Origin: Candidatus Binatia bacterium
Lineage (GTDB): Bacteria; Desulfobacterota; Binatia; DP-6
Direction: 5' to 3'
DNA: 64,000 nt
Assembly: GCA_036009625.1 (NCBI GenBank)
Contig: DASYLJ010000101.1
Coordinates: 1,483 to 65,482 of the forward strand
A program made the position numbers and the translations under genes. The notes under the pieces were generated by a model that made no database searches, was not told the origin of the DNA, and worked only from the letters and a program-made list of their open reading frames with translations. This document shows positions 37,763 through 57,796 of this stretch, one piece after another (positions within the stretch are counted from its first letter, which is position 1; each line of letters starts with the position of its first letter).

Positions 37763-38728
37763 CTACGCCGCCCCGCGAGCGCGTTCCGCGGTCTGCGTGC
37801 GCGCCCGGAGCCGCGGCAGCTCGGCGCCCGAGAGGAGGAAGATCATGCCACCGATGATGCCGGTCGCGGCCGTCATCGCGAACCACAGGATGCCCATGGT
37901 CACCGCGATGGAATCGTCGATGTGGATGCGCGTCAGGAAATACAGGTAGCCCCCCTCGCGCACGCCGAAGCCGCCGATGCTGACCGGCATCGCCATCATC
38001 AGGCTCAGCATCGGGTGGATGATCATGCAGTACGAGAACGGCAGCTCGGCACCTGCGGCGCGCGCGATGTAGTACTGCACCGCCACCTGCGACATGTGGA
38101 ACACGATCGACACTACGCTCACGCGCAGCAGGAGCCCGGTGTCGCGCCAGAACGGACCGAGGTCGTCCTCGACCTGGCGCCGCAGGCGATTGCCGACGGG
38201 CAGCAGGCGCACCAGGAGCGGGCAGGTCCACCAGCCGACCACGAGCGTCAGGCCGCCGGCGATGCACGCCGCGCTCAGGATCCACGGGAAGTCGTACTGC
38301 GGGAAGGCGATCAGAGCCGCGGCCCCCGTCGCCATCAGGAGCGCCAGGCCAGTGATGCGGTCGAAGATCACCGAGTTCAGCGCCAGGACGGGCCGGCGGC
38401 CGTCGCCGAGATAGAGCCCGCGCACGACGTCGCCACCGATGGTGCTGAGCCCGAAGACGTTGAAGAAGGCGCCGATGTAGTAGAAGCGGATGTACTCGTG
38501 CCACGGGCGGTCGAGGCCGACGGAGCGCCCCAGCATGCCCCACTTGATGCCGCTCAGCGCCTGCCCCGCCAGGAAGATGGCGAGCGGAAGCACGAGATTG
38601 CCGAGCTTCACCGCCGCCAGCGCCGCGCGCAGGTCGGCGTTGTCCACATCCACGAGGATGTAGGCGATGATGCCGGCGCTCACGCCGACGCGGAGCAACC
38701 ACCGCGCTACACCCCGGGCCCGATCCAC
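37763..38728 (-). CDS. flippase-like membrane protein (lysyl-PG synthase TM region / UPF0104 family)
   Basis: Lower part of ORF 37763..39559 from GTG 38728: 8 or more hydrophobic spans, ...FYYIGAFFNVFGLSTIGGDVVRG...MPVSIGGFGVREGG..., typical of LPG_synthase_TM. Confidence 0.65.
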   Translation of the reverse strand: MDRARGVARWLLRVGVSAGIIAYILVDVDNADLRAALAAVKLGNLVLPLAIFLAGQALSGIKWGMLGRSVGLDRPWHEYIRFYYIGAFFNVFGLSTIGGDVVRGLYLGDGRRPVLALNSVIFDRITGLALLMATGAAALIAFPQYDFPWILSAACIAGGLTLVVGWWTCPLLVRLLPVGNRLRRQVEDDLGPFWRDTGLLLRVSVVSIVFHMSQVAVQYYIARAAGAELPFSYCMIIHPMLSLMMAMPVSIGGFGVREGGYLYFLTRIHIDDSIAVTMGILWFAMTAATGIIGGMIFLLSGAELPRLRARTQTAERARGAA

Positions 38729-38825: not shown

Positions 38826-40223
38826 ATGGCCCAAGCGGAGCGGCGTGAGTCGACCGACTTGATCGTCGTCGGCGCCAGTGTAGGTGGATTGCTCGCAGCC
38901 ATCCTTGCTGCGGATCGCGGATGCCACGTCGTCGTGCTCGAACGCACACGAGAGCTCGGCGGCGGCGCGGCCACCGGCACCGGCCTTCTGGCGGCCGCTG
39001 GCACGCGCTGGCAGCGCGACACGGGCATCGACGACGCACCGGAGAAGCTCCTCGCCGACCTGCGCGCCGTCACGCAGCACCACGTCGAGCCCGAGGTGGC
39101 GCAGGCGGTGGTCGAGCAGGGGGCGTGGATCGTCGAGTGGCTCGCCGATCGCTGTGGTGCCGCCATCGACCTCACGCGGCAACCGACCAACGTGCACTCG
39201 GTGCATCGCCTGCACGCGTGCGGCCAACAGGGCGGCACCAGCCTGGTGACGGCGCTGACGCGCGTCGCGTCGCGCCACAACCGGATCCGGATGCGACCCG
39301 GCAGCGAGGTGCAGTCGCTGCTGCGGGACTCCGCCGGCGCGGTCACGGGCGTGGCGCTGCGTCCCGAGCGACGCGGCACGGCGGCGATCGCCGGTCGCGT
39401 CCTCCTGGCTTGCGGCGGATTCGGCGGCGATGACGCCCTCATCGGCGAGCACTGCCCCGACGCCGCGTCCCTGCCGCATCCCGCCCCCGCGCTCGCCGAC
39501 GGCACCGGCCTGCGGCTCGGCCTGTCGGTCGGCGCCGGCACGCACGAGCTGGATGCCATCGAGGTGACGCCGTTCCTCGCTCAGCCCTCGCTGCTGCCGG
39601 TGCCGGACACGTTGATCGAGCTGGGCGCCATCATGGTCAACCAGAGCGGCAGACGCTTCGTCGGCGAGGACGGCGACGCGCTGCCCCTGGCGCGCGAGGT
39701 CCGCGCCCAGCCGGGACACATCGCCTATCTGGTGTTCGACGACCGCATCGTGCGGCAGGCATCCGTCGACCCGTTCTTCGAGCACGTCGTCCTGCCGCGC
39801 GCGGGGCGCCGCGGCTCGACGCTCAAGTATCTCGCACGTCAGCTCGACCTCGACGCCGAAGGGCTCACGATGACGGTCGAGAACTTCAACGCCAATCTCG
39901 AGCTGGGCGGCGATCCCTTCGGGCGCCAGCGATGCGGCAACCCGCTCGAGCCGACGTTCCACGCCATTCGCGTCACCGGCGCCCGTCTGCGCACGCTCGG
40001 CGGCCTCACCACCAACGCCGACGCCCGGGTTCTCGACCCGAGCGGCACGCCGATCCCCCGCCTCTATGCCGTCGGCGGAACGGCAGCCTGCTTCTTCGCC
40101 AGAGACGCGACCAGCGCCATCGAAGGGCTCGACCTGCTGACCACGCTCGCCATGGCCCGCCGCGCCGCCCAATGCGTCGTCAGAGCCACTCAGGACCCCG
40201 GCGAGGAAACGTCCGCGACCTGA
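38826..40223 (+). CDS. FAD-dependent oxidoreductase (FAD_binding_2; fumarate reductase / 3-ketosteroid dehydrogenase-like)
   Basis: From ATG 38826: DLIVVGASVGGLLAAILAADRGCHVVVLERTRELGGGAATGTG...TRWQRDTGIDD... plus the C-terminal ...RLYAVGGTAA... FAD-anchoring motif. Confidence 0.75.
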   Translation: MAQAERRESTDLIVVGASVGGLLAAILAADRGCHVVVLERTRELGGGAATGTGLLAAAGTRWQRDTGIDDAPEKLLADLRAVTQHHVEPEVAQAVVEQGAWIVEWLADRCGAAIDLTRQPTNVHSVHRLHACGQQGGTSLVTALTRVASRHNRIRMRPGSEVQSLLRDSAGAVTGVALRPERRGTAAIAGRVLLACGGFGGDDALIGEHCPDAASLPHPAPALADGTGLRLGLSVGAGTHELDAIEVTPFLAQPSLLPVPDTLIELGAIMVNQSGRRFVGEDGDALPLAREVRAQPGHIAYLVFDDRIVRQASVDPFFEHVVLPRAGRRGSTLKYLARQLDLDAEGLTMTVENFNANLELGGDPFGRQRCGNPLEPTFHAIRVTGARLRTLGGLTTNADARVLDPSGTPIPRLYAVGGTAACFFARDATSAIEGLDLLTTLAMARRAAQCVVRATQDPGEETSAT

Positions 40224-40241: not shown

Positions 40242-40457
40242 TCAGTTCGAACGACGGTCGCGGCCGGTCACGGCCAGGTTCACGAGCGCGAAGAAGAGCT
40301 CGTCGAGCGACTCATAGACGAAGGGCGAGCTCTTGCCGACGCCCTTGATGTCGTCGGCACGCGTGCTCCAGCCGCGCAGATCGTCGCCGTACACCGGGTA
40401 CACCGCCGCCCCGATGCGTAGGTACGTGCGGGACGCGCTACCGATGCTGGGGGTCAT
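40242..40457 (-). CDS. hypothetical 71-aa protein
   Basis: MTPSIGSASRTYLRIGAAVYPVYGDDLRGWSTRADDIKGVGKSSPFVYESLDELFFALVNLAVTGRDRRSN. Strong GC3 bias, and its ATG forms an ATGA overlap with the acyltransferase stop. Confidence 0.5.
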   Translation of the reverse strand: MTPSIGSASRTYLRIGAAVYPVYGDDLRGWSTRADDIKGVGKSSPFVYESLDELFFALVNLAVTGRDRRSN

Positions 40458-41290
40458 CCGAAGAAGAGCGATTTCCGACGCTGCTTGAGACGCGTGACCA
40501 TGGCCTGCAGACGACGGCGTACGCGCATGGCTTCGACACGGGCACGCCCGTAGCGCGCCTCGTCGTCGCCCGCCGTGAGCCGCAGCGGCTTGCCGAAACG
40601 GATGTACCATTTCGTCGGAAGCGGCAATGCCCCGAGAATGCCCAGCACCGGAAAGAACGGCGTGATGGGCACGTACGGCATGCCGAGCAGCTTACCGATG
40701 CCCTCGGCACGGCCGACCAGCGGGTATATCTCCTCGGCGCCGACGACGGCCACCGGCACGACGGGCACGTCGAGCGCGAGCGCCATGCGGGCGAAGCCCG
40801 GGCTGAACGGACGCAGGCGGTAGCGGTCGCTGAACGGCTTGGCGACGCCGGGCACGCCCTCGGGGAATACCAGGAGCGGCTCGCCGTGCTGCAGCAGCGT
40901 GATCGCGTTTTCGCGCGACGCCACCACGCCGCCGACCTTGCGGTAGAACGCGTCGACCGGTCCAAGGTTGGCGACGAAGCGATCGTAGAGGAAGCGCACC
41001 GGGCGGCCGCGGTGCTTGTCGAGCGCCGTGATGATCATGGCGCCGTCGAACGGCAGCGCGCCGGAGTGGTTGGCGACCAGCAGCACCGGCCCGGTGGCCG
41101 GCACGTGGTGCGCGCCCGCGACGTCGACCCGCCAGTAACGATCGTGCAGGAAGCGGAACGCCGGCTTGACGCGATTGCGGACCGTCAGGTCGAGGCCGAA
41201 CGGATCGCCGGAGGGTGCGTCGTCGGTCTTACCGACGTCGAGCGTGATCGATGATGCCACTCCACTCACGCCCCTGCCTCCACCGCGCAC
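40454..41290 (-). CDS. lysophospholipid/1-acyl-glycerol-3-phosphate acyltransferase family (PlsC-like)
   Basis: ...GPVLLVANHSGALPFDG... (HX4D-box variant) and ...LLVFPEGVPGV... (FPEG box). The start is uncertain (GTG 41290, 41263 or 41254). Confidence 0.8.
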   Translation of the reverse strand: MRGGGRGVSGVASSITLDVGKTDDAPSGDPFGLDLTVRNRVKPAFRFLHDRYWRVDVAGAHHVPATGPVLLVANHSGALPFDGAMIITALDKHRGRPVRFLYDRFVANLGPVDAFYRKVGGVVASRENAITLLQHGEPLLVFPEGVPGVAKPFSDRYRLRPFSPGFARMALALDVPVVPVAVVGAEEIYPLVGRAEGIGKLLGMPYVPITPFFPVLGILGALPLPTKWYIRFGKPLRLTAGDDEARYGRARVEAMRVRRRLQAMVTRLKQRRKSLFFG

Positions 41291-41360
41291 GAGTTACAGC
41301 TCCCGCGACGCTGTATAGCCCACCGCCGTCGGAGAAAACAAGGTAGTGCCCACGCCGAAT

Positions 41361-41762
41361 TCACGCGAGGGCGACCGTCGCGGTGCCGATGACCAGGCGA
41401 TCGCCCTCGTCGCTCTCCATCCACAGATCGAGCTCGACGGTGCGCGCCGCGTCGTCCTTCTGGGTCACCGCACCGCACAGACGGATCGTGCGATCGGGCA
41501 GGACGAGACCGCGGAAGGTGGTGCCGAGCCGGCGGAGCCGCCCCGGACCGGCCCAGCCGTCGATCAACATCGTGAGAAGGCCCATGCTCATGTTGCCGGG
41601 CGCGATCATGCCCGGCAGTCCTTCGGCGCGGGCGCCCTCGTCGTCGGTGAAGCGCGGGAACGTGATGTCGTTGGCGCGCGCATACTCGCGCACCTGATCC
41701 TTCGACAGGTACAGCTCGCGCGGGCCGAGGTCGTCGCCCTCGAAGACGTCGTCGAAGCGCAC
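41361..41762 (-). CDS. MaoC-like hotdog dehydratase/hydratase subunit
   Basis: ...SKDQVREYARANDITFPRFTDDEGARAEGLPGMIAPGNMSMGLL...TTFRGLVLPDRTI... is a MaoC dehydratase motif. GTG start lies 1 nt after the upstream stop. Confidence 0.8.
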   Translation of the reverse strand: MRFDDVFEGDDLGPRELYLSKDQVREYARANDITFPRFTDDEGARAEGLPGMIAPGNMSMGLLTMLIDGWAGPGRLRRLGTTFRGLVLPDRTIRLCGAVTQKDDAARTVELDLWMESDEGDRLVIGTATVALA

Positions 41763-41763
41763 G

Positions 41764-42201
41764 TCAGCGATCTCCCTTGAACATCATGCGGTTGTCGATC
41801 GTCGCGAGGTGCTCGTCGCGATCGTTCGTGATCATGAAGCGGACCACCAGGAAGATCATCGTGCCGGTGCGGCCGGTCTTCTCGTAGACGTCGTGCAGCG
41901 TGGAGACCACCCGCACCATGTCGCCGGGACGGATGGGTACGCCGAACTCGATGTCCTTGCCGGCATCGAGGCTCATGCGCGGGTTGAGACCGGCCGGCAG
42001 GTCGTCGGGGAGGAACTTCCGGCTGCGGTACCGCACGCAGTACGTCGGATGGCCGATCAGATCGGGACCAGGCTCGACGTAGCAGGGGGTGGTCTCGCCC
42101 AGCGCGCGCGCGAACGCGATCAGCGACTCGGCGGTGACGGGCTCGGCGTCGGCACGGTCGAACTCGCGACCGAGGATGGAACGATCGAACTCCAGGGGCA
42201 T
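41764..42201 (-). CDS. hotdog-fold protein (FAS1 dehydratase N-terminal / MaoC partner subunit)
   Basis: MPLEFDRSILGREF...VTAESLIAFARALGETTPCYV...HPTYCV...GDMVRVVSTLHDVYEKTGRTGTMIFLVVRF... resembles the non-catalytic partner of heterodimeric HadAB/ChsH-type hydratases. Confidence 0.7.
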   Translation of the reverse strand: MPLEFDRSILGREFDRADAEPVTAESLIAFARALGETTPCYVEPGPDLIGHPTYCVRYRSRKFLPDDLPAGLNPRMSLDAGKDIEFGVPIRPGDMVRVVSTLHDVYEKTGRTGTMIFLVVRFMITNDRDEHLATIDNRMMFKGDR

Positions 42202-42247
42202 GACCCGGGCGAAGCTAGGCGAACCGCCGGTACGCCGCAAGGTGCGA

Positions 42248-43030
42248 TCAAACGCCGAAACGTCCGAGCAGTCGCTGCACCAGCCAGATGATGATCGGCA
42301 GTACCAGCGTGGTGATGAACCCCGTCGCCGTGGAGACGTCCCACGGCCAGGTCGAGATGCGGGTGAGCGCCTCGCGCTCCGTGACGATCGACGACAGCTG
42401 GTTGTTGAGCTTGTCGGCGTCCGTGAGCACGTCCTGGTCGACGCGCTCGTGCAAGCGACCGACGATGCGTTCGAAACGGGCGCCGGCCTCCTCCAGCAGC
42501 CGATGTTTCTCGGCGACGAGGCGCAGGTGCATCCCGTACAGCGGCAGGAGGAAGCACGCCACGGCGGTCGGCACCATGGCGACGATCAGCAGCTTCAGCA
42601 ACGGGGTGTCGTGCACGATCTCGGGTCGGACGGCGGCGATGTAGTAGGCCAGCAGCAGGAAGCTCATCCCGGTGCGGGCAGTCAGGCGCGAGAAGGCGTA
42701 GAGCGGCTTGGCGCGGAAGAGGCTGACCTTCCGGGCGAGGCCGTGGATCAGGTCCACCATCCAGAGCTGCCGGATCGCCTGCGCCGTGCTGATGCCGACC
42801 ACGGCCAGCGTGAACAAGCCCACCGGGGCCAGAATCAGGGCGCTCGACAGGCGCGACGCCCCGAACTGCATCATGATCCAGTCGGGGAGGAGGGCCGCGT
42901 TGACGACGTACGCCAGCATCCCGAACGCAGTGACCACCCACGTCGTGCGTGCAGGCAGCGTGGTGAGCTCGTAGCGCAGGCGGTGGAACTCCTCGTCGCC
43001 CACGGCCAACGCGGAACGGAAGCCGTCCAT
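42248..43030 (-). CDS. polytopic membrane protein, unknown family (N-terminus probably extends upstream)
   Basis: Hydrophobic spans, a central coiled segment and C-terminal ...WPWDVSTATGFITTLVLPIIIWLVQRLL. The same frame stays open and GC3-rich up to 43411, but with no ATG, GTG or TTG (see finding). Confidence 0.6.
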   Translation of the reverse strand: MDGFRSALAVGDEEFHRLRYELTTLPARTTWVVTAFGMLAYVVNAALLPDWIMMQFGASRLSSALILAPVGLFTLAVVGISTAQAIRQLWMVDLIHGLARKVSLFRAKPLYAFSRLTARTGMSFLLLAYYIAAVRPEIVHDTPLLKLLIVAMVPTAVACFLLPLYGMHLRLVAEKHRLLEEAGARFERIVGRLHERVDQDVLTDADKLNNQLSSIVTEREALTRISTWPWDVSTATGFITTLVLPIIIWLVQRLLGRFGV

Positions 43031-43331
43031 GGCCGCCGCCGCCGCCCGATCGAGACGGAAGCGGACCCAGAGGAGGTACGGCGCGATGACGACGATGAAC
43101 GTGCGCCCCAGATCGAACGTGCCGAATGGCAGGACATCGTTCGACCACAGCAGCGCCGTCGTCCAGAGCCACTCGACGAGGAGTATCGCGAGAACGTAGA
43201 GGCCGTCCGGTCCCGGCAGCCGGTCGATCCGATCGAGCAGCAGGTCGAGCCAGCCGGGGACGTAGTGACGCTCCCGAACTCTCCGTAGTCCCCGCTCGAC
43301 AGCCGCCGGCTTCGTGGCTTCCTCCTCGTCC

Positions 43332-44402
43332 TCAGGGACGCACGACGTAGAACGCGTTGATCGGATGCCCGAGCTCGAGCGGCTCGAACGACGCGAAGCC
43401 CGCCTCCTGCGTCATGCGACGCGCGAGGTCCGCCGTGAGCCCCAGCGTGCCGAGCCCTGCCCCACCGGGCTCGGACAGCGCCGACGACATGCACGTCAGT
43501 ACCGACGTGCCGTACATCATGGCCGCCATCGGGTTGCGCGCGACGTTGGCCTCGTAGCTCTCGCGCGCCTTGATGTCGCAGATGAGCCACACACCGTCGG
43601 GACGGATCGCCGAACGGATCGCGCCCATGACCGCCTGTGGGTGGGTCATGTCGTGCAGGCAGTCGAACGTCGTGACGAACGCGAAGCGACCGTCCGTCGG
43701 TAGCGGATCGCGTCGCGCATCGTGGAACGTGACGTTGGAGATGCCGGCCGTGGCGCGGTTCTCCTCGGCGCGGCCGAGCGCGTACTCCGAGACGTCCCAG
43801 CCGTGGAACGTCGACCGCGGGAATGCCTTCGCCATCTCGATCAGGGCCACGCCACTGCCGCAGCCGACGTCCGCCACCGTGGCTCCCGCGGCGAGAACGT
43901 CGGTCAGGCCCGGAACCGCGGGCAACGCCAGCGGCACCAGCAAGGCGCGGAACCAGGGCGCGAAGCCGCGCTCGATACCGGCCGCACCCTCGGGACCGAA
44001 GGCGTCGTACGGCAGCCCGACGCCGGTGCGGAAGGCCTCCGGCAGGAGGTCGACCACGCTCATCATCTGCGGGAAGTGCGAGAAGAAGCCGGCGCCGAAG
44101 GCGGGTGACGCTTCCTCGGCGAGCACGGCGCGGCCCTCGGCGGAGAGCGCGAAGCGGCCGTCGCCGCGATGCTCGAGCACTCCGGCGGCACCCTGCTGAT
44201 GGAGCCATTCGCGTACCCAGCGCTCGGCGAGGCCGGTACGTGCGGCCAGCGCGACGCTATCCGTGGGCTCGCCATCGGCCAGCGCCCGATAGAGGCCCAG
44301 GCGATCGCCGAGGCAGATCATCGCCGACGTCATGGCACCACCGAGGGCCCCGAAGACGACCTTCGCGTAGGCCTTGAGTCGGTCGACGTCGAGCTCGGCC
44401 AT
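43332..44402 (-). CDS. class I SAM-dependent methyltransferase with N-terminal winged-helix (Rv2258c-like)
   Basis: From ATG 44402: ...MICLGDRLGLYRALADGEPTDSVALAARTGLAERWVREWL... (wHTH), then VADVGCGSGVALIEMAKAF (motif I) and ...FDCLHDMTHP... Confidence 0.8.
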   Translation of the reverse strand: MAELDVDRLKAYAKVVFGALGGAMTSAMICLGDRLGLYRALADGEPTDSVALAARTGLAERWVREWLHQQGAAGVLEHRGDGRFALSAEGRAVLAEEASPAFGAGFFSHFPQMMSVVDLLPEAFRTGVGLPYDAFGPEGAAGIERGFAPWFRALLVPLALPAVPGLTDVLAAGATVADVGCGSGVALIEMAKAFPRSTFHGWDVSEYALGRAEENRATAGISNVTFHDARRDPLPTDGRFAFVTTFDCLHDMTHPQAVMGAIRSAIRPDGVWLICDIKARESYEANVARNPMAAMMYGTSVLTCMSSALSEPGGAGLGTLGLTADLARRMTQEAGFASFEPLELGHPINAFYVVRP

Positions 44403-44926
44403 CAGTGTTCCAGCGTGAAGTACAGCACGCAGGCGTACGCCGAGCCGGCACGATAGTTCATGCGCGCCAGCAGCAGGCCGGGCCCGAGCCGCCGCACCTC
44501 GCCGACGATGCCGCGCATCGGCAGCAGGTTCTCGTCGACGTCGTAGTCGAGCTGGACGCACGGACCGGTGCCGTCGAGTGCGAGGGTGAGCTTCACGCGG
44601 TACGCCGCGAAGCTCAGTTGTCCCGTCCCGACGCCCCAACGATTGACGCCGTGGTCACCCGCGAAGCGCTTCGCGCGCCAGACGTTGAGCGGCGTGCGGA
44701 GCACGGCGTAGATGCCGTCGCGCAACCAGATCGGCAGCCGGTCGATGCCGAGCACGCCCATGAGCGAGCCGCGGAGATCACCGCGCAGCTCCGAGAGCTC
44801 GGGCACCGGAAGCGCCGCGAAGAGAGCGTCGAGCTCGGCGCGCGAGCGACGCGCGAGCGAGCGCGCGTCGACTGCCTCGGGGCGGAAGCCGGTGTCGGTG
44901 ACGGGGATGCGGATGGCCTGTTCCAT
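44402..44926 (-). CDS. hypothetical protein (174 aa), no recognised family
   Basis: GC3-rich ORF. Its stop overlaps the methyltransferase ATG by 1 nt, and it lies 18 nt downstream of the GMC oxidoreductase stop. Confidence 0.55.
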   Translation of the reverse strand: MEQAIRIPVTDTGFRPEAVDARSLARRSRAELDALFAALPVPELSELRGDLRGSLMGVLGIDRLPIWLRDGIYAVLRTPLNVWRAKRFAGDHGVNRWGVGTGQLSFAAYRVKLTLALDGTGPCVQLDYDVDENLLPMRGIVGEVRRLGPGLLLARMNYRAGSAYACVLYFTLEH

Positions 44927-44943
44927 GATTTCCTCCGTGGACG

Positions 44944-46425
44944 TCAGTGCATCAAAGCGGCCTGGCGCTCGGCGAGCGCCGCGATCGTGAGCGACGGCGG
45001 GATGCCGGGCGAGCGTGGGTAGAGCGCACCGTCGGCGATGAAGAGCCCGGGATTGCCGAAGACCTCTCCGGTGTGGTCGACGACCCCGTCGTCGGGAGTC
45101 TTCCCGATCGACGCGCCACCGAGCGGGTGCACCGTGCCGACCCGCGGCGCGCCGCGCCCTGACGGCACGTTCAGATAGAGACGGCGCGCGCCGTAGGGAC
45201 GGCTCACGACCTCGATGGCGTGCTCGATGTCGTCGAACAGCGCGGGGTCGACGTCGCGGCCGGCGCTGGTACGGAGCGCGCTGCCGTCGAAGGTGATCTC
45301 GCCGGTGGATGCGTCGCGTCCCATGGCGAGCAGCAGCGCCGCCCGTCCGAGCCGGCGCTTCAGCGACCGCGGCAGCGGCATGGCGGCGAGCGGCAGCCCG
45401 ACCTCGCCGACGATGAAGCGGGCGCGACGCACGAAGGCGTTCAGGGCAGCCCCCCGGCCCACATCGGTCACCGTCTGCGTGTCGGCGGCGATCGCGAGCA
45501 GATCGCCGTTCGGCGAGAAGTGACGGCCGAGCGCAGGCGGCAGATAGGGCAGCGCGCCGTGGCGATCGCGCGCCTGGAAGAGCAGCCGGATGGTGTTGAG
45601 CGATCCGGCGGCCAGCACGAGGCGCGGCGCGTCCACCTGCTGCTGCGCACCGGTGCGGTGATCGCGGTAGCGCACGCGATAGCGACCGTCCTCACGCCCG
45701 ATCGCGACCACCTCGCACAACGGCCGCAGCTCGGCGCCGTGGCGCAGTGCGATCGGCACGTAGGTGAGGTCGAGCGTCGTCTTGGCGCGCTCGGTGCAGC
45801 CCATGACGCAGCAGCCGCAGTGCGTGCAGCTCGACTGCATCACGCCGGCGGCGTTCACCCGCTTCTCGGGGCGCGCCGGATCGCTGCTCCACATGATCCC
45901 CAGGTCGGGATAGACGGGTGGACCCAGGCCCGCCTCGACGGTGGCACGCTCGAAGGCCTGGTTCTTGTCCGGACGGACGGGGATGGGCGACGGACGCAGC
46001 ACCGACCGCACGCGCCCGAACCACGGCGCCATCTCGCCGCCGGTGATCTCGTCGGGAAAGGCGTCGAAGAATTCCGCGTCGGGCGCCTCGAGCACGTTGG
46101 TGTAGATCAGCGAGCCGCCGCCCACGCCGCTGCCGGTCACGACGTCGAGGTGCTCGAAGGCGTGCATCTCGTAGAGGCCGTCGGCGTTGACGAGGACCTC
46201 TCGCGACCGTCGACCGCGCGCCCAGCGCACGCTGCGGACGGACTTCCGCAACCCGAGCACGCCGCGTGGGAACGCGCGACGATCGGCCGCGGGCTGGCCC
46301 TCACCCGCCGGGCCCCACCACGGCCCACGCTCGAGGATCAGGACGCGCAGGCCGCGTTGCGCGAGCCGGGCCGCGGTGACCGCGCCGCCGAAGCCGGAGC
46401 CGATGACGATGACGTCGGGGGTCAC
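44944..46425 (-). CDS. GMC-family FAD oxidoreductase (cholesterol-oxidase-like)
   Basis: From GTG 46425 (GTGA overlap): DVIVIGSGFGGAVTAARLAQRGLRVLILERG..., ...GSGVGGGSLIY.N..., ...TVHPLGGASIG... and ...NPGLFIADGALYPRSPGIPPSLTIAALAER are typical GMC N- and C-terminal motifs. Confidence 0.85.
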   Translation of the reverse strand: MTPDVIVIGSGFGGAVTAARLAQRGLRVLILERGPWWGPAGEGQPAADRRAFPRGVLGLRKSVRSVRWARGRRSREVLVNADGLYEMHAFEHLDVVTGSGVGGGSLIYTNVLEAPDAEFFDAFPDEITGGEMAPWFGRVRSVLRPSPIPVRPDKNQAFERATVEAGLGPPVYPDLGIMWSSDPARPEKRVNAAGVMQSSCTHCGCCVMGCTERAKTTLDLTYVPIALRHGAELRPLCEVVAIGREDGRYRVRYRDHRTGAQQQVDAPRLVLAAGSLNTIRLLFQARDRHGALPYLPPALGRHFSPNGDLLAIAADTQTVTDVGRGAALNAFVRRARFIVGEVGLPLAAMPLPRSLKRRLGRAALLLAMGRDASTGEITFDGSALRTSAGRDVDPALFDDIEHAIEVVSRPYGARRLYLNVPSGRGAPRVGTVHPLGGASIGKTPDDGVVDHTGEVFGNPGLFIADGALYPRSPGIPPSLTIAALAERQAALMH

Positions 46426-47072
46426 GTCGTCACCGGACGCTGGCGGAAGTCGACCGCGCGACACCGCCCCGCGCGCAGCTCGCGCACCAGATCGTCGATG
46501 GTGCGGATGTCGACGTCGAACTCCGTGGCGCAGATGCCGACGAAGCTGACGAGGTGCGCATCGCTGCCGCCGTAGCCCGAGTAGCCGTGCGTGCGCATCA
46601 GCTCGGCGACGCGTGCGTCCTCGCCCTTCTTGCTGCCGCCGTTGATGGCCTCGACGGCGACCACGCCGTCGAGGTGCGGTCGAGTCTCGTAGTGCGCGCA
46701 CAGCCCCACGTTGGGCCGGCCCGGATGACACGGCAGCGCGACGCCGCCGAGTCGCCACACCTCGCTTACGACCTCCTGCGCCGGCAGTCGCACGTTGGCG
46801 AAGTCGAAGCGCCCGAGGATGTCCTCGTTGACGCCGTAGACCAGCACGTGACCGTAGTCGGTCTCGACCTCGGCCGCGTTCAGGATGACGAAGCCGTACT
46901 GGTCTTCGAGATCGCGGTAGTCGCGATGCAGGTCGAACTGGCGGTGCTCGGTGAGGACGATGCCGTCGAGCGGTCGCTCCTCGCGCTTGCGCTGCAGGAT
47001 GCGGAGATACGCCTCGACGGGTGCGCGGCTGTCGTCGGAGAGCTCGGAGTGCAGATGCAGGTCGAGGATCAT
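46422..47072 (-). CDS. PHP-domain metal-dependent phosphoesterase
   Basis: From ATG 47072 (ATGA overlap): MILDLHLHSELSDDS...VLTEH...EVET.YGHVLVYG...GGSDAH... are PHP His/Asp motifs. Confidence 0.75.
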   Translation of the reverse strand: MILDLHLHSELSDDSRAPVEAYLRILQRKREERPLDGIVLTEHRQFDLHRDYRDLEDQYGFVILNAAEVETDYGHVLVYGVNEDILGRFDFANVRLPAQEVVSEVWRLGGVALPCHPGRPNVGLCAHYETRPHLDGVVAVEAINGGSKKGEDARVAELMRTHGYSGYGGSDAHLVSFVGICATEFDVDIRTIDDLVRELRAGRCRAVDFRQRPVTT

Positions 47073-47482
47073 GATGCCGGACGGAACTTCGGCAGCGTCA
47101 CGTCGGGCGTGACGTCGTCGAAGACCACCTCCACCGGCATCCCGATGCGGACCTGGTCGGGCGCGCACTCGACGACGTTGGTCATCAGGCGCGGCCCTTC
47201 CGCCAGCTGGACGATGGCGAGCACGTACGGCAGCTCCTCGCGGAACCCCGGCGCCTGATTTTGATGCGTGACGGTGTAGCTGTAGACGACGGCCTTGCCG
47301 CTCGACCGCACCCACTCGATGGCCCCCGACAGGCAGTTGGTGCAGAGCGCGCGCGGCGGCAGACGCAGCGTGCCGCAGTCGCGGCAGCGCTGCACGCACA
47401 GCTCGTGCCGAGCCAGCGCCTCCCACCAGCCGCGCGACTCCTCGTCGATGCGCGGCAGCGGCTTGCGGTACTTGTCGCTCAT
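47069..47482 (-). CDS. Zn-ribbon/OB-fold protein (DUF35)
   Basis: ...WWEALARHELCVQRCRDCGTLRLPPRALCTNCLS...VYSYTV...PYVLAIVQLAEGPRLMTNV... is the classic DUF35 pattern. ATGA overlap with the thiolase stop. Confidence 0.85.
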   Translation of the reverse strand: MSDKYRKPLPRIDEESRGWWEALARHELCVQRCRDCGTLRLPPRALCTNCLSGAIEWVRSSGKAVVYSYTVTHQNQAPGFREELPYVLAIVQLAEGPRLMTNVVECAPDQVRIGMPVEVVFDDVTPDVTLPKFRPAS

Positions 47483-48630
47483 GGCCGCCCCAGGATCATC
47501 GTGACCCCGCTGTGACGCTGGCCGAGCATGCCGCCGGTGCCGTGCACCAGTGCCAGCGCCGCGTCCGGCACCTGCGCTGCTCCGCGCTCGCGCCGGAGCT
47601 GCTTCGTGGCCTCGATGACGAGGAAGATGCCGCGCATGCCGGGATGGTTCGAAGACAGTCCGCCGCCGTCGGTGTTCACCGGCAACGCCCCGCCGAGGCC
47701 GATGCGACCATTCGCGCAGAACGCCCCACCCTCACCCGGTTTGCAGAAGCCCAGCGCCTCGAGCGTCGCCAGCACCGTGATGGTGTACGAGTCGTAGACC
47801 ATGCACATGTCGATGTCGTCGTGCGTGACGCCGGCACGCTGGAAGGCCAGCGGGCCCGACTGCCGCGCCGCGATGTCGAGCAGGTCGCGATCGCCGATGC
47901 CCTGATGGCGCACGGCCTCGGCGCCGCCGAGGATCACGACCGACGGCTTGGCGAGGTCGCGCGCGCGCTCCGCCGACGTCAGCACCAGCGCGCCACCGCC
48001 GTCGGAGATGATGCAGCAGTCGAGCAGGTGGAGCGGCGACGAGATGATGCGCGACGCCGTTACGTCCTCGATGGTGATCGGATCGCGGTACTTCGCCTGC
48101 GGGTTGAGCCCGGCGTGCCGTCGCATGGTGACGGCGATCTCGGCGAGCTGCTCGCTGGTGGTGCCGTACTCGTGCATGTGGCGCTGCGCGACGAGCGCGT
48201 AGGAGCCGACGATGGTGGGGCCGAAGGGCGACTCGAAGTGGTCGGGCGGGTCGGACACCATGCCGCCACCGGTGCCGATCGCGAAGCGCTCCGACGCCGC
48301 CGTGGAGCCGTAGGTGACGAGCGCCACCGAGCACAGCCCGGCGTCGATGGCAGCCGCCGCGTGCAGGCAGTGCGACACGAACGACGAGCCGCCGATCGCC
48401 TGCGAGTCCATGTAGCAGGGCTTCAGGTTCAGGTGCTGCGCCAACGACATGATGCCGATCGGCCCGACGCCGCTCGTGAACAGCCCGTCGACGTCGTGGA
48501 TGCCGAGCCCGGCGTCGGCGAGCGCGCCACGCGCGCTCTCGGTGTGTATCTGGTACGCGGTTTTGTCCGGCGCGAACCGCGTCGGATGCTCGTACACGCC
48601 GGCGACGGCGACGCGGCCCCAGACACTCAC
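47479..48630 (-). CDS. thiolase-like protein (SCP-x/Ltp-type, DUF35-partnered)
   Basis: From GTG 48630 (GTGA overlap): ...VAVAGVYEHPTRFAP...QAIGGSSFVSHCLHAAAAIDAGLCSVALVTYG...VNTDGGGLSSNHPGMRG... is the non-specific lipid-transfer thiolase pattern. Confidence 0.85.
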   Translation of the reverse strand: MSVWGRVAVAGVYEHPTRFAPDKTAYQIHTESARGALADAGLGIHDVDGLFTSGVGPIGIMSLAQHLNLKPCYMDSQAIGGSSFVSHCLHAAAAIDAGLCSVALVTYGSTAASERFAIGTGGGMVSDPPDHFESPFGPTIVGSYALVAQRHMHEYGTTSEQLAEIAVTMRRHAGLNPQAKYRDPITIEDVTASRIISSPLHLLDCCIISDGGGALVLTSAERARDLAKPSVVILGGAEAVRHQGIGDRDLLDIAARQSGPLAFQRAGVTHDDIDMCMVYDSYTITVLATLEALGFCKPGEGGAFCANGRIGLGGALPVNTDGGGLSSNHPGMRGIFLVIEATKQLRRERGAAQVPDAALALVHGTGGMLGQRHSGVTMILGRP

Positions 48631-49430
48631 GCGAGGCCCTCCGCGAACGCCGTCAGCAGGGCGTCGAACTGCGCGGTCTGCTCGAGCGGCACCTGATGGC
48701 CGGCCTTGGCGACGACCTCGAGCCGCGCGCCGGGGATGGCTGCGGCCAGCGCCTCGGACTGCGCCGGCGGCGTCACCTTGTCGTCGATTCCCGCGACGAC
48801 GAGCGTCGGCACGCGGATGCCGGGGAGCGCCGCGCGGCCGTCGAACACGTCGCAGGCGAGCAGATCGGTGAGCCGCACGCGCGGATCGGTCTTCACCTGC
48901 TCCATCCAGGCCTCGCGCATCAGGTCCATGCCGGTGTCTGGCGAGAAGGTCTCGGTGGTGAACTGCTGCGGCAGGCGGCCGCGCACGACGTCGCGCGTGG
49001 TGGCGATGCTCTCGGGGGCCAGGGTGAAGCGCGCCGACGAGCAGACGAGCGCGAGGCCCCGCAGCGCTGGTCTCCGGGCCGCCACCACCTGGGCGACGGC
49101 GCCCCCCATGCTGCGACCGACGAGGACGCAGGGTCGCCGGCAGACCGCATCCAGGAACGCCTCGACGACGGCGGCAGCGACCGCGATCGACTCGGGCCCC
49201 TCGACGCCGGGAGAGCGACCGTGTCCCGGCAGGTCGAGCGCGACGACGCTGTGCGCACTGCCAAGGTCGTCGAGCTGCCGGCGCCACATGCCGGCGTTGC
49301 TGCCGGCCGCATGGAGCAGGACGAACAGAGTGCCCCGATCGAGGCCCGGCGGCACGTCCGGGAGCGTGGTGGGACCCGTGTGCAGGTAGTGGACGGCGGT
49401 GCCGTCGAGGTCGACGTACTTGGAAGGCAA
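48627..49430 (-). CDS. alpha/beta-fold hydrolase
   Basis: ...LFVLLHAAGSNAGMWRRQL...LDLPGHGRS...VLVGRSMGGAVAQ... (nucleophile elbow GxSxG) ...AGHQVPLE... Confidence 0.8.
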   Translation of the reverse strand: MPSKYVDLDGTAVHYLHTGPTTLPDVPPGLDRGTLFVLLHAAGSNAGMWRRQLDDLGSAHSVVALDLPGHGRSPGVEGPESIAVAAAVVEAFLDAVCRRPCVLVGRSMGGAVAQVVAARRPALRGLALVCSSARFTLAPESIATTRDVVRGRLPQQFTTETFSPDTGMDLMREAWMEQVKTDPRVRLTDLLACDVFDGRAALPGIRVPTLVVAGIDDKVTPPAQSEALAAAIPGARLEVVAKAGHQVPLEQTAQFDALLTAFAEGLA

Positions 49431-49481
49431 GGCGTTCCTGTCTAGGTCCGGCGTGCGGGAGCTGTCAATTCCGCGTCTGCC

Positions 49482-54973: not shown

Positions 54974-54986
54974 CTTCCCGCCCTCC

Positions 54987-56225: not shown

Positions 56226-56359
56226 GTGGCGCCTTCCTCCCTGGTGGGGGACGCCACGTCGGCGCCCCGCGCCGGAGAGCAAGAGCGATGCCGGCCAACT
56301 TCGTCCGCCGGATGGGGAGATGTGGCCGCGTAACCGGGCAGAATTGTGCGGCGCTGGGC

Positions 56360-56402
56360 AAAAATGAGCCCCGGGGAGCGTGGTTGCTCGCTCCCCGGGG
56401 CT
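56360..56402 (-). terminator. rho-independent terminator after paralog 3
   Basis: A 14-bp perfect stem (56367-56380 / 56389-56402) with an 8-nt loop. On the minus strand it is followed by TTTTT (plus-strand AAAAA at 56360-56364). It lies 13 nt downstream of the paralog-3 stop. Confidence 0.65.
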
Positions 56403-56414
56403 GCGCTCGGCGGG

Positions 56415-57635: not shown

Positions 57636-57796
57636 GAGCACCCTCCTTCAGTTGTTGTGGAGAGTCGCGCCCGGGCGGCAGATCATCGTTGGCCCGGACA
57701 CGACTCCCAGGCATCTGAGACCAGGAGTACCATGCGGTCCGCCGCTGCGAATGCCCCCTAAAACAAGTTTTTTTGAGGCACAGAAAAGCGCCGGGG

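What the first reader, a model, noticed from the sequence alone, without database searches (positions are those of the whole stretch)
40242..49430. Roughly 9-kb, 12-gene co-directional operon mixing steroid-side-chain-type enzymes, lipid acyltransferase, methyltransferase and unknowns
Gene order on the minus strand is: alpha/beta hydrolase, SCP-x/Ltp-type thiolase, DUF35, PHP phosphoesterase, GMC (cholesterol-oxidase-like) flavoprotein, a 174-aa unknown, an Rv2258c-like SAM methyltransferase, an unknown polytopic membrane protein, a heterodimer-type MaoC/hotdog pair, a PlsC-like acyltransferase and a 71-aa unknown. Most junctions are 4-nt or 1-nt stop/start overlaps: GTGA at 48627, ATGA at 47479, ATGA at 47069, GTGA at 46422, a 1-nt overlap at 44402, a 1-nt spacer at 41763 and ATGA at 40454. 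The only sizeable gap is 70 nt at 41291-41360. The set Ltp-type thiolase plus DUF35, MaoC pair, GMC oxidase and alpha/beta hydrolase recalls actinobacterial steroid side-chain catabolic families (Ltp2/ChsH1-ChsH2, ChoD, HsaD). A convergent KstD-like FAD_binding_2 flavoprotein (38826-40223) adds to that resemblance. However, no ring-opening enzymes, acyl-CoA dehydrogenases or CoA ligases are present. The acyltransferase, methyltransferase and membrane proteins argue instead for synthesis or remodelling of an unusual membrane lipid. I know of no described pathway with this composition.
Basis: partly seen in the sequence, partly recalled or inferred. Interest (0 to 1): 0.65.

Follow-up and report, generated by a model that had tools for sequence, protein, structure and literature searches.

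The report
Mosaic lipid-enzyme gene string in Binatia
The twelve genes are real and tightly packed, but they are an old gene set of the uncultured bacterial group Binatia, headed by three conserved promoter-like sites, with a four-gene cassette inserted into it, and none of the parts matches a characterised steroid enzyme.

Summary
All 12 minus-strand genes, their domain families and the stop/start overlaps are confirmed. The window comes from Candidatus Binatia.

The string is not one conserved operon:
- In most relatives, abH–thiolase-like–DUF35–PHP runs straight into MaoC1–MaoC2–PlsC–u71.
- GMC–u174–MT–membrane protein is an accessory cassette at the PHP|MaoC1 boundary. Other lineages carry other cargo there, or nothing.
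- Conserved sigma70-like −35/−10 elements lie upstream of abH, MaoC1 and PlsC. This points to at least three tandem transcription units.

The steroid resemblance holds only at family level:
- The "thiolase" lacks the nucleophilic Cys and has a YDSY motif. It is aldolase-like, but is neither Ltp2 nor Sal.
- The hotdog pair lacks the canonical Asp/His dyad.
- The GMC protein keeps His447 but not Glu361 or Asn485 of cholesterol oxidase.
- The "KstD-like" protein sits closer to soluble fumarate reductases.

New results:
- The 174-aa unknown is predicted to be a lipocalin-like barrel.
- It is gene-linked to GMC enzymes in three bacterial lineages and fused to them in both orders, including in a fungus.
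- It is therefore an accessory subunit or domain of that GMC subfamily.

The function remains inferred. The best reading is tailoring of a hydrophobic, probably CoA-linked, lipid-like substrate.

The parts
49439..49468 (-). P1, a promoter-like element: TTGACA-18 nt-TAGACA, ending 8 nt before the abH start codon
   Evidence: TTGAC and TA are invariant in 10 related loci while the flanks vary. It is one of only two TTGNNN-N14-16-CCTAG matches in the window.
48627..49430 (-). Alpha/beta hydrolase, 267 aa, with GRSMGG nucleophile elbow
   Evidence: Abhydrolase_6 1e-27. Best NCBIfam hits are the PcaD and BioH types, far below cut-off; HsaD scores 57 bits against a cut-off of 400.
47479..48630 (-). 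Thiolase-fold, aldolase-like protein, 383 aa. It has no nucleophilic Cys (G80-G81), motif Y279-D-S-Y282, and His329
   Evidence: Only Thiolase_C_1 hits in Pfam. PDB hits: 4u4e 3e-113, then TcLtp2 (6ok1) 2e-50 and 9myr 1e-48, read as CtSal from its YDCY motif and numbering. Residue mapping; residue roles from PMC12329534.
47069..47482 (-). Stand-alone DUF35 protein, 137 aa, with Cys4 zinc ribbon (C33, C36, C47, C50) plus OB fold
   Evidence: zf-ChsH2 3.5e-13 and OB_ChsH2_C 1.5e-27; Cys positions.
46422..47072 (-). PHP-family metallohydrolase, 216 aa, starting HLHSELSDD
   Evidence: PHP_C 1.3e-14. CehA/McbA domain model scores 64 bits against a cut-off of 80. Very conserved: the 120 best of 3002 hits are 79-95% identical.
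44944..46425 (-). GMC-family flavoprotein, 493 aa (cassette gene 1). Has His433 (= ChoA His447) and CTHCGCCVMGC at residues 200-210
   Evidence: Full-length match to Streptomyces cholesterol oxidase at 1e-29, but Glu361 is Ala and Asn485 is Pro.
44402..44926 (-). u174, a lipocalin-like accessory subunit of the GMC enzyme (cassette gene 2)
   Evidence: AF2 pLDDT 84, beta-barrel. Foldseek gives 4mve at 2.7e-6, then lipocalins. Adjacent to GMC genes in Binatia, a gammaproteobacterial MAG and Turneriella. Fused to GMC in both orders.
43332..44402 (-). Rv2258c/TnmJ-type SAM methyltransferase, 356 aa (cassette gene 3)
   Evidence: HTH_65 plus Methyltransf_31. PDB: 8g5s 2e-59, 5f8c 3e-48. Also paired with u174 in L004 and L001.
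42248..43318 (-). Polytopic membrane protein, about 355 aa, with no canonical start codon upstream of ATG 43030 (cassette gene 4)
   Evidence: No Pfam or NCBIfam hit. Found only in the window and L007. N-terminal extension is coding by GC3 and substitution pattern.
42212..42240 (-). P2, a promoter-like element: TTGCGG-17 nt-TAGCTT, ending 10 nt before the MaoC1 ATG with no Shine-Dalgarno sequence (leaderless-type)
   Evidence: TTGC and CCTAG are invariant in 22 of 22 aligned loci, whatever gene lies upstream. It is the single match in the window to TTGCNN-N14-20-CCTAGC.
41764..42201 (-). Hotdog subunit 1, HadA-like, 145 aa
   Evidence: FAS1_DH_region 3e-16; alignments.
41361..41762 (-). Hotdog subunit 2, HadB-like fold without the Asp/His dyad, 133 aa, with invariant FPRFTDDE
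   Evidence: MaoC_dehydratas 1.2e-7. Alignment to HadB (5zy8_B) puts Ile and Phe at Asp36 and His41. Conserved across the family.
41312..41341 (-). P3, a promoter-like element: TTGTTT-18 nt-TATACA, ending 21 nt before the PlsC GTG, with GGGAG in the leader
   Evidence: CTTGT and TA are invariant, and GCTATA nearly so, in 21 loci.
40454..41290 (-). PlsC/LPLAT-family acyltransferase, 278 aa, with NHSGALPFD and FPEG motifs
   Evidence: PF01553 7e-21. Only weak NCBIfam hits (Aas, AGPAT, OlsF). No PDB sequence relative.
40242..40457 (-). u71, a conserved 71-aa protein translationally coupled to PlsC (ATGA overlap)
   Evidence: 274 homologous clusters, 21 invariant positions. AF2 model is low confidence: beta-hairpin plus C-terminal helix.
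38826..40223 (+). Convergent FAD_binding_2 flavoprotein. Context gene, conserved next to u71 in Binatia
   Evidence: FAD_binding_2 5e-47. PDB: flavocytochrome c fumarate reductases 1e-44 to 1e-36, ketosteroid dehydrogenases 1e-17 to 2e-29. All NCBIfam hits below cut-off.
37763..38698 (-). LPG_synthase_TM (flippase-like) membrane protein. Context gene
   Evidence: PF03706 5e-33. Syntenic in Binatia loci.

Best explanation
SHOWN
- The 9-kb string is a composite, not one dedicated pathway operon.
- Its backbone is an eight-gene set inherited throughout Binatia: alpha/beta hydrolase, thiolase-fold aldolase-like protein, DUF35, PHP hydrolase, then a non-canonical hotdog pair, then a PlsC-type acyltransferase with a 71-aa partner.
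- The backbone is headed by three conserved promoter-like elements (P1, P2, P3), so it is read as three tandem transcription units.
- In this lineage a four-gene cassette sits at the 3' end of the first unit, just upstream of P2. It consists of the GMC flavoprotein, u174, the Rv2258c-type methyltransferase and a membrane protein.
- u174 is tied to this GMC subfamily by conserved adjacency across three bacterial lineages and by fusions in both orders.

INFERRED
- Backbone: by analogy with ChsH1-ChsH2-Ltp2 and Shy-Sal, the thiolase-like/DUF35 complex and the hotdog pair hydrate an enoyl-CoA and then cleave (or form) a C-C bond in a bulky acyl-CoA by aldol chemistry.
- The two hydrolases and the acyltransferase release, or re-esterify, the product onto a lipid acceptor.
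- Cassette: the GMC enzyme is a dehydrogenase rather than an oxidase. It carries a CxxCxxCxxxC motif, which suggests an Fe-S centre. It would oxidise a hydroxyl on a hydrophobic substrate held in the barrel of u174, and the methyltransferase would modify the same molecule.
- The substrate is lipid-like, but there is no evidence that it is a steroid.
For: Mosaic structure
- The whole neighbourhood from MutS2 to PEPCK is syntenic in Binatia.
- In 63 loci anchored on MaoC2, PHP is followed by MaoC1 within 26-66 nt in 13 of 22 informative loci. Seven have a gap of about 0.5 kb and two carry 4-5.5 kb of other cargo.
- GMC-u174 precede MaoC1 in only 6-7 loci. MT and the membrane protein are in none.
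- L024 has PHP-HTH-MaoC1 with no GMC or u174. In genome GCA_026129405.1 a CRISPR-Cas island separates PHP from GMC.
- Family sizes differ by orders of magnitude: PHP 3002, u71 274, u174 31 clusters.

Promoters
-.

Backbone linkage beyond Binatia-like GC
- L075 and L076 keep (abH)-thiolase-like-DUF35-PHP-MaoC1-MaoC2. In L075, MlaA, MlaC and an MMPL transporter follow.

Aldolase-like active site
-, with PMC12329534.

GMC-u174 coupling
- Adjacency in a gammaproteobacterial MAG, in unclassified contigs with the same gene order, and in Turneriella.
- Fusions P0332/P0422 (N-terminal; the latter fungal) and P0333/P0335/P0337/P0342 (C-terminal).
- Lipocalin-like fold.
- The Cys motif is conserved in the four Binatia GMC sequences aligned and absent from the two non-Binatia ones. 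It is also absent from the fused homologues.
Against: - No experiment and no substrate is known; every catalytic step is inferred.
- The hotdog pair lacks the canonical Asp/His dyad, so hydratase activity is uncertain.
- The thiolase-like protein has Ser where CtSal needs Cys, and the C304S variant of Sal is inactive. It has His where Ltp2 has Tyr344. Aldolase chemistry is therefore plausible but unproven.
- The promoter-like elements were not detected by the generic scan. No terminators were found, so read-through across all 12 genes remains possible.
- Synteny within Binatia also covers unrelated housekeeping genes. Conserved order alone does not prove that the backbone units share a function.
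- The Fe-S assignment rests on a sequence motif only.
Confidence: 0.55

Rival explanations
1. One dedicated 12-gene operon encodes a single pathway that builds or remodels an unusual membrane lipid.
For: - Seven junctions are 4-nt or 1-nt overlaps or a 1-nt spacer, and no terminator-like site was found.
- The order is identical in L007, and in L006 apart from the membrane protein.
- Lipid-related families lie in and next to the string: PlsC, LPG_synthase_TM.
Against: - The four middle genes are missing from most relatives that keep the other eight.
- Other cargo occupies the same slot in other lineages.
- Conserved promoter-like elements precede MaoC1 and PlsC.
- GMC-u174 exists as a self-contained, LysR-linked unit in other bacteria.
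Confidence: 0.15
2. The genes are a steroid, sterol or bile-acid side-chain catabolic cluster: Ltp2/Sal plus ChsH-type hydratase, ChoD-type oxidase, KstD and HsaD.
For: - The second- and third-best PDB relatives of the thiolase-like protein are the steroid aldolase TcLtp2 (6ok1) and 9myr, which by motif and numbering is CtSal.
- A DUF35 partner and a MaoC pair are present.
- The best characterised relative of the GMC protein is cholesterol oxidase.
- u174 relatives occur in Nannocystaceae, including Enhygromyxa.
Against: - Ltp2 Tyr344, Sal Cys304, ChoA Glu361 and Asn485, and the hydratase Asp/His dyad are all substituted.
- The HsaD model scores 57 bits against 400, and KstD models 82-125 bits against 788-793.
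- The FAD_binding_2 protein is closer to fumarate reductases.
- No ring-cleavage enzyme, acyl-CoA dehydrogenase or CoA ligase was found among the window genes scanned, which are housekeeping types.
- The backbone sits in the conserved core neighbourhood of a lineage not known to degrade steroids, and the Binatota survey does not mention steroids.
Confidence: 0.07
3. The genes are functionally unrelated neighbours, packed together and co-oriented only by descent and genome streamlining.
For: - Synteny in Binatia extends equally over clearly unrelated genes: MutS2, MotAB, M20 peptidase, ApbA, PEPCK.
- Insertions up to a CRISPR-Cas island are tolerated between the parts.
Against: - Thiolase-like, DUF35, PHP and the hotdog pair remain contiguous in distant 57-60% GC lineages where the other neighbours differ.
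- GMC and u174 are fused in some organisms.
- PlsC/u71 and several other junctions are translationally coupled.
Confidence: 0.15

Closest known systems
ChsH1-ChsH2-Ltp2 (actinobacterial) and Shy-Sal (proteobacterial) steroid side-chain hydratase-aldolase complexes
   Same: - A thiolase-fold protein without the nucleophilic Cys, carrying a Tyr-Asp-x-aromatic motif.
- A DUF35 zinc-ribbon/OB partner.
- A MaoC-type hotdog component encoded alongside.
   Different: - The motif is YDSY, against YDHF in Ltp2 and YDCY in Sal.
- His329 sits where Ltp2 has the catalytic Tyr344 and Sal has Gln352.
- DUF35 is a separate protein, not fused to the hydratase.
- Both hotdog subunits lack the Asp/His dyad.
- A PHP hydrolase lies between the DUF35 gene and the hotdog pair.
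- There is no steroid gene context.
Class I (GMC-type) cholesterol oxidase, Streptomyces ChoA (PDB 1b4v)
   Same: Full-length GMC fold match (E 1e-29) with the catalytic His447 conserved in VHPLGG.
   Different: - Glu361 (the isomerisation base) is Ala and Asn485 is Pro.
- Scores 149 bits against a cut-off of 850 for the NCBIfam cholesterol oxidase model.
- No signal peptide is apparent in the N-terminal sequence (my reading).
- Has an extra CxxCxxCxxxC motif and an obligate-looking lipocalin-like partner.
FAD-dependent dehydrogenase complexes of the GMC family with a small subunit and a 3Fe-4S cluster (Burkholderia cepacia glucose dehydrogenase gamma-alpha-beta)
   Same: - A GMC catalytic subunit with a Cys-rich loop near residue 200-220.
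- A small (about 170-aa) partner encoded next to it.
   Different: - The partner here is a predicted beta-barrel without a Tat signal. It is not the partly helical 'hitchhiker' gamma subunit.
- There is no cytochrome c subunit.
- The Cys spacing differs: CxxCxxCxxxC here, against Cys212/218/222 in BcGDH.
- Similarity to these enzymes is limited to the N- and C-terminal segments.
HadAB/HadBC (3R)-hydroxyacyl-ACP dehydratase heterodimers of mycobacteria
   Same: Two adjacent small hotdog genes, the first HadA-like (FAS1_DH_region) and the second HadB-like.
   Different: - HadB Asp36 and His41 are replaced by a variable residue and an invariant Phe.
- Scores are far below the equivalog cut-offs.
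Tcur_1030 (PDB 4mve) and the lipocalin/calycin fold
   Same: The u174 model matches 4mve (E 2.7e-6, TM 0.55-0.63) and then odorant-binding proteins, other lipocalins and FABPs.
   Different: - No sequence-level match to any PDB chain.
- No Pfam model hits. Only 1 of 15 members touches GXWXG, at E 0.022, and none of the distant members tested does.

Membership tests
SCP-x/SCP2-type thiolase | Nucleophilic Cys in the N-terminal domain and an HDCF motif | tested here: not met
   - GG (residues 80-81) aligns with Gly88-Gly89 of the 9myr chain, read as CtSal from its YDCY motif and numbering. The paper states that a Gly replaces the catalytic Cys in CtSal.
- The motif is YDSY.
- No Thiolase_N Pfam hit.
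Ltp2 steroid aldolase | YDHF motif with the catalytic base Tyr294 | tested here: inconclusive
   The Tyr is conserved (Y279), but the motif is YDSY: Ser in place of His296.
Ltp2 steroid aldolase | Catalytic acid Tyr344 | tested here: not met
   His329 (in SSNHPG) aligns with Tyr344 of 6ok1_A.
Sal bile-acid aldolase | YDCY motif with the essential Cys304 | tested here: not met
   Ser281 sits at that position. The C304S variant of CtSal is inactive.
Ltp2/Sal aldolases | Forms a complex with a DUF35 domain | not testable with these tools
   A stand-alone DUF35 gene overlaps the stop codon of the thiolase-like gene (ATGA). Binding itself was not tested.
MaoC/hydratase-2 (HadB, ChsH, PhaJ type) | Asp and His of the hydratase-2 motif | tested here: not met
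   Alignment to HadB (5zy8_B) puts Ile and Phe at Asp36 and His41. Phe is invariant in all 13 family members aligned. The HadA-like subunit lacks them too.
Class I cholesterol oxidase (ChoA/ChoD) | Catalytic triad His447, Glu361, Asn485 | tested here: not met
   His is conserved, Glu361 is Ala and Asn485 is Pro. NCBIfam score is 149 against 850.
3-ketosteroid dehydrogenase (KstD) | Score above the family threshold, and closest relatives being KstDs | tested here: not met
   KstD models score 82-125 bits against 788-793. PDB relatives rank fumarate reductase flavoproteins at 1e-44 ahead of KstDs at 1e-17 to 1e-23.
HsaD meta-cleavage-product hydrolase | Score above the family threshold | tested here: not met
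   57 bits against a cut-off of 400. PcaD and BioH types score higher but are also below cut-off.
PlsC/LPLAT acyltransferases | PF01553 domain with the HX4D and FPEG blocks | tested here: inconclusive
   PF01553 at 7e-21 and FPEG are present. Block I reads NHSGALPFD, so the first Asp after the His comes seven residues later (H-x6-D), not at the HX4D position. AGPAT model scores 31 bits against 103.
GXWXG/DUF4334 proteins | Match to PF14231 or PF14232 | tested here: not met
   1 of 15 members hits GXWXG, at E 0.022. None of the distant or fused members tested hits either. The fold is similar to 4mve only.
Fe-S-containing GMC dehydrogenases (BcGDH type) | Cys-rich loop that ligates an Fe-S cluster | tested here: inconclusive
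   CTHCGCCVMGC at residues 200-210 is conserved in the four Binatia orthologues aligned. BcGDH uses Cys212/218/222. No residue-level alignment to BcGDH could be made, and no metal data exist.
Single operon | One promoter and no conserved internal promoters | tested here: not met
   Conserved -35/-10-like pairs lie before abH, MaoC1 and PlsC. Transcription itself was not measured.

The most novel reading that the evidence does not exclude
Two unrecognised systems lie side by side.
1. A widespread two-component flavoenzyme. It consists of a cholesterol-oxidase-like GMC dehydrogenase whose substrate is delivered by a dedicated lipocalin-like subunit. The subunit is a separate protein in the bacterial loci examined here and is fused to the GMC enzyme in some sequences, including a fungal one. 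In Binatia it carries an Fe-S centre and is teamed with an Rv2258c-type methyltransferase.
2. A Binatia-core set of tandem transcription units. In it a third kind of thiolase-derived aldolase (YDSY/His), a catalytically re-invented hotdog pair, a PHP hydrolase and an acyltransferase with a micro-protein partner make or trim a so far unknown branched or hydroxylated lipid.
Probability: 0.25. Interest if true: 0.65.

Novelty: new variant of a known kind. Interest (0 to 1): 0.45.

Why it matters
- Binatia are abundant, uncultured soil and sediment bacteria, and nothing is known about their lipids.
- The backbone genes are among the most conserved in this neighbourhood. The thiolase-like protein and PHP are 77-97% identical across most Binatia-like loci (69-72% in the most distant), so they probably serve a core function that no current annotation captures.
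- The thiolase-like protein extends the recently recognised series thiolase, SLP, Sal and Ltp2 with a further active-site variant.
- The GMC-lipocalin-like pairing, supported by gene fusions, gives a testable hypothesis for about 600 sequence clusters of unannotated small proteins. It also bears on 'cholesterol oxidase' annotations that are probably wrong.
- For genome scanning, the case shows that tight co-directional packing with overlapping stops and starts can hide an insertion cassette and internal promoters.

Tried and rejected
- Sterol or hopanoid link. I suspected sterol chemistry because u174 relatives occur in Nannocystaceae (Enhygromyxa) and a gammaproteobacterial MAG. No cyclase, sterol or hopanoid genes were found among the window genes scanned. 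The Nannocystaceae neighbours are uninformative: Crp regulator, S41 peptidase, aldo-keto reductase. Dropped.
- u71 as a degenerate acyl carrier protein, suggested by an ESLDELFFAL motif resembling DSLD. There is no PP-binding hit. The model is a hairpin plus one helix at pLDDT 63. Not pursued, and no fold search was run because of the low confidence.
- u174 as a GXWXG/DUF4334 member. Not supported by Pfam.
- Menaquinone link. In L004, u185-MT-CarF-like-PNPOx lies upstream of men genes. This is a single locus and was not generalised.
- The generic promoter/terminator scan gave nothing. The conserved elements were only seen by aligning upstream regions.
- Literature searches for DUF4334/GXWXG and for Binatia lipids returned nothing relevant.
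- PDB sequence searches for PlsC and PHP gave no hits.
- The cargo in the PHP|MaoC1 slot of L043 and L053 is unrelated to that of L002, L008 and L013. It was not annotated further.

Full report
**1. What is in the sequence**

The window has about 70% G+C. Between 40242 and 49430 the minus strand carries twelve ORFs with third-position GC of 0.86-0.93 in the called frames.

- alpha/beta hydrolase
- a protein hitting only Thiolase_C_1
- DUF35 (zf-ChsH2 plus OB_ChsH2_C)
- PHP_C
- GMC_oxred_N/C
- an Rv2258c-type wHTH plus class I methyltransferase
- a FAS1_DH_region and MaoC_dehydratas pair
- a PF01553 acyltransferase

The 174-aa, 71-aa and membrane proteins have no family hit. All quoted stop/start overlaps are present. 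The remainder of the window, as far as it was scanned, encodes housekeeping-type functions: GroEL, SRP54, Mrp antiporter, MiaB-like, PEPCK, MotAB, MutS2, DsbD, Hsp33, RibBA. No steroid, sterol or hopanoid genes were seen.

**2. Two corrections to the observation**

The membrane-protein ORF (stop at 42248) is open up to 43414. It contains no ATG, GTG or TTG upstream of ATG 43030. The 96 codons upstream of that ATG are nevertheless coding:
- GC3 is 0.88-0.90 in frame.
- They contain a predicted transmembrane helix.
- Against the orthologue in L007 the substitutions fall 16/7/25 on codon positions 1/2/3, as in the rest of the gene. The two other frames do not show this.

A GGAGGAA sequence is followed by ACG in both genomes. 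L007 has TTG where the window has CTG at 43240. A non-canonical start is therefore likely.

The second correction is that the spacers are not empty (see section 5).

**3. Origin and synteny**

u174 has only 31 homologous clusters in the word-indexed search. Genome loci carrying it are titled Candidatus Binatia. L007 is 93-99% identical for most of the proteins compared (memX 83%, the LPG_synthase_TM protein 76%) and shows the same order, including the membrane protein. L006 is 66-95% identical and lacks the membrane protein.

The entire stretch from MutS2-MotBA through the twelve genes to FAD_binding_2, LPG_synthase_TM, M20, ApbA, JAB, DHO-like and PEPCK is syntenic in Binatia. Conserved order within this lineage therefore says little by itself.

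**4. The string is a mosaic**

I anchored a metagenome scan on the hotdog subunit MaoC2, independently of the cassette. It gave 63 loci.
- Where both PHP and MaoC1 are visible (22 loci), they are 26-66 nt apart in 13, about 0.5 kb apart in 7, and separated by 4-5.5 kb of unrelated cargo in 2.
- GMC-u174 precede MaoC1 in only 6-7 loci. The methyltransferase and the membrane protein occur in none.
- L024 has PHP-HTH-MaoC1 without GMC or u174, and phosphonate genes between DUF35 and PHP.
- L002, L008 and L013 carry a fused 1118-aa acyl-CoA carboxylase and a 340-aa unknown ahead of GMC-u174, with no methyltransferase.
- In genome GCA_026129405.1, abH-thiolase-like-DUF35-PHP (L023) and GMC-u174-MT-MaoC... 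(L001) lie about 20 kb apart, with Cas genes at both ends of the intervening stretch.

Conservation also differs:
- The thiolase-like protein and PHP are 77-97% identical across most Binatia-like loci, and 69-72% in the most distant locus, L075.
- GMC is 65-93% identical and u174 58-93%.
- The PHP, u71 and u174 families count 3002, 274 and 31 clusters.

The backbone is therefore abH-thiolase-like-DUF35-PHP | MaoC1-MaoC2 | PlsC-u71. GMC-u174-MT-memX is an accessory cassette in a variable slot.

In distant 57-60% GC lineages (L075, L076) thiolase-like-DUF35-PHP-MaoC1-MaoC2 remain contiguous while PlsC is gone. In L075 they are followed by MlaA, MlaC and an MMPL-type transporter. The same non-canonical hotdog pair also occurs between an acyl-CoA ligase, an SDR and a crotonase in L079-L083.

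**5. Three conserved promoter-like elements**

Aligning the sequence upstream of MaoC1 from 22 loci shows two invariant blocks, TTGC and CCTAG, at fixed spacing in otherwise variable DNA. This holds whatever gene lies upstream.
- P2 in the window reads TTGCGG-17 nt-TAGCTT and ends 10 nt before the ATG, with no Shine-Dalgarno sequence. That geometry fits a leaderless or near-leaderless transcript.
- P1, upstream of abH, reads TTGACA-18 nt-TAGACA and ends 8 nt before the start. TTGAC and TA are invariant in 10 loci.
- P3 lies in the '70-nt gap' before PlsC. It reads TTGTTT-18 nt-TATACA and ends 21 nt before the GTG, with GGGAG in the leader. CTTGT and TA are invariant, and GCTATA nearly so, in 21 loci.

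The pattern TTGNNN-N14-16-CCTAG occurs exactly twice in the 64-kb window, at P1 and P2. About 0.7 matches are expected by chance anywhere. The generic scan missed all three elements and found no terminators.

My inference is at least three tandem transcription units, with the cassette appended to the 3' end of the first. This also explains why the PHP|MaoC1 boundary tolerates insertions. Read-through cannot be excluded.

**6. Testing the steroid-type resemblances residue by residue**

*Thiolase-like protein.* The PDB relatives are 4u4e (an uncharacterised Sphaerobacter 'thiolase', E 3e-113), then the steroid aldolase TcLtp2 (6ok1) and 9myr. I take 9myr to be CtSal because its YDCY motif and numbering fit the paper. 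True thiolases rank lower.

Roles below are taken from PMC12329534, mapped with the alignments:
- G80-G81 align with Gly88-Gly89 of that chain. The paper states that a Gly replaces the nucleophilic Cys in CtSal.
- The motif is Y279-D-S-Y. Ltp2 has YDHF, Sal has YDCY and SCP2 thiolases have HDCF.
- His329 sits where Ltp2 has the acid Tyr344 and Sal has Gln352.

It therefore cannot be a thiolase. It shares the catalytic Tyr of the aldolases but fits neither Ltp2 nor Sal.

*Hotdog pair.* Aligned to HadB, MaoC2 has Ile and Phe at Asp36 and His41. FPRFTDDE is invariant across the family. MaoC1 is HadA-like.

*GMC protein.* Against Streptomyces cholesterol oxidase, His447 is kept, Glu361 is Ala and Asn485 is Pro.

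*FAD_binding_2 protein.* It is nearer to soluble fumarate reductase flavoproteins than to KstD.

*Alpha/beta hydrolase.* It scores 57 bits against 400 on the HsaD model.

**7. The 174-aa unknown**
- An AlphaFold model built with 15 homologues (pLDDT 84) is a beta-barrel with N-terminal helices.
- Foldseek finds the uncharacterised Tcur_1030 (4mve, E 2.7e-6), then lipocalins, odorant-binding proteins and FABPs.
- There is no sequence-level PDB match and no Pfam match.
- The gene is adjacent to a GMC gene in Binatia, in a gammaproteobacterial MAG and in Turneriella. Unclassified contigs with the same layout as that MAG read PlsY-LysR-u163-GMC-CMD.
- An exhaustive profile search finds 615 representative clusters.
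- Several of these are fusions with GMC domains in both orders: P0332 (N-terminal) and P0333, P0335, P0337, P0342 (C-terminal). The cluster of P0332 includes a fungal protein annotated 'cholesterol oxidase precursor'.

This is strong genomic evidence that u174 is an accessory subunit or domain of this GMC subfamily. Given its fold, it most plausibly holds a hydrophobic substrate.

The four Binatia GMC orthologues aligned additionally carry CTHCGCCVMGC (CxxCxxCxxxC, residues 200-210). The motif is absent from the two non-Binatia GMC sequences aligned and from the fused forms. A Cys-rich loop at residues 212-222 ligates a 3Fe-4S cluster in B. cepacia glucose dehydrogenase. An Fe-S centre here is an inference from the motif.

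The methyltransferase (closest TnmJ and Rv2258c) is paired with u174 also in L001 and in the distant L004. There a CarF-like lipid desaturase follows.

**8. Interpretation**

*Shown:*
- the mosaic architecture
- the conserved promoter-like elements
- the GMC-u174 coupling
- the failure of the ChoA, KstD, HsaD, Ltp2, Sal, thiolase and hydratase-2 membership tests

*Inferred:*
- The backbone works like a hydratase/aldolase system on bulky acyl-CoA esters, with hydrolases and an acyltransferase handling the ester-linked substrate or product.
- The cassette oxidises and methylates a hydrophobic hydroxylated molecule.
- The lipid connection is circumstantial: PlsC, LPG_synthase_TM, MlaA/MlaC/MMPL, PlsY and the CarF-like desaturase.

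Neither the direction of the chemistry (cleavage versus condensation) nor the substrate can be decided from sequence.

**9. Verdict**

The finding is a new variant of known kinds of enzymes in an uncultured lineage and is moderately interesting. Its most valuable by-products are:
- the GMC-lipocalin-like module
- the YDSY/His thiolase-fold variant
- the non-canonical hotdog family
- the internal promoters

Noticed in passing
window 53801-58999, minus strand: Four tandem paralogous ORFs of 390, 412, 408 and 400 aa, 43-68% identical to each other. Each has a signal-peptide-like N-terminus, many Cys residues and no Pfam hit. They form a tandemly amplified family of unknown, probably secreted, proteins.
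   Followed up: partly
window 43031-43318, minus strand: The N-terminal 96 codons of the membrane-protein gene are coding by GC3 and by substitution pattern but contain no ATG, GTG or TTG. The start is probably ACG (43315, after GGAGGAA) or CTG (43240, which is TTG in L007).
   Followed up: partly
window 42212-42240; 22 related loci (alignment A8): The element upstream of MaoC1 is conserved beyond the two hexamers: CTTGCSACG ... CGATCCCCTAGCTTC. It might also be an operator, or the target of a special sigma factor, rather than a plain sigma70 promoter.
   Followed up: partly
L002 3719-8480; L008 2886-7664; L013 3338-7766: In some Binatia the slot ahead of GMC-u174 holds a single-polypeptide acyl-CoA carboxylase (biotin carboxylase + BCCP + carboxyltransferase, about 1118 aa) and a conserved 340-aa protein with no NCBIfam hit and no Pfam hit on record.
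   Followed up: partly
L024 1348-7156: Another Binatia lineage has a glycosyltransferase, a B12-radical SAM enzyme, a PEP mutase-nucleotidyltransferase fusion and a split TPP decarboxylase between DUF35 and PHP. These are phosphonate-type genes.
   Followed up: no
L004 10001-13286: A distant u174 homologue (52% identity) sits with a 71%-identical Rv2258c-type methyltransferase, a CarF/PEDS1-like lipid desaturase and a PPOX-type flavoprotein, directly upstream of a menaquinone operon.
   Followed up: partly
L009 8031-8552 and 9956-10474: An Enhygromyxa MAG carries two divergently oriented u174 paralogues about 1.5 kb apart, flanking an aldo-keto reductase gene.
   Followed up: no
L023 9029-16657 and L001 1-199 (genome GCA_026129405.1): Cas genes lie at both ends of the roughly 20-kb stretch that separates PHP from GMC in this genome: Cas_GSU0053 in L023 and a Cas4-Cas1 fusion in L001. 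An AbiEii-like gene lies between DUF35 and PHP.
   Followed up: no
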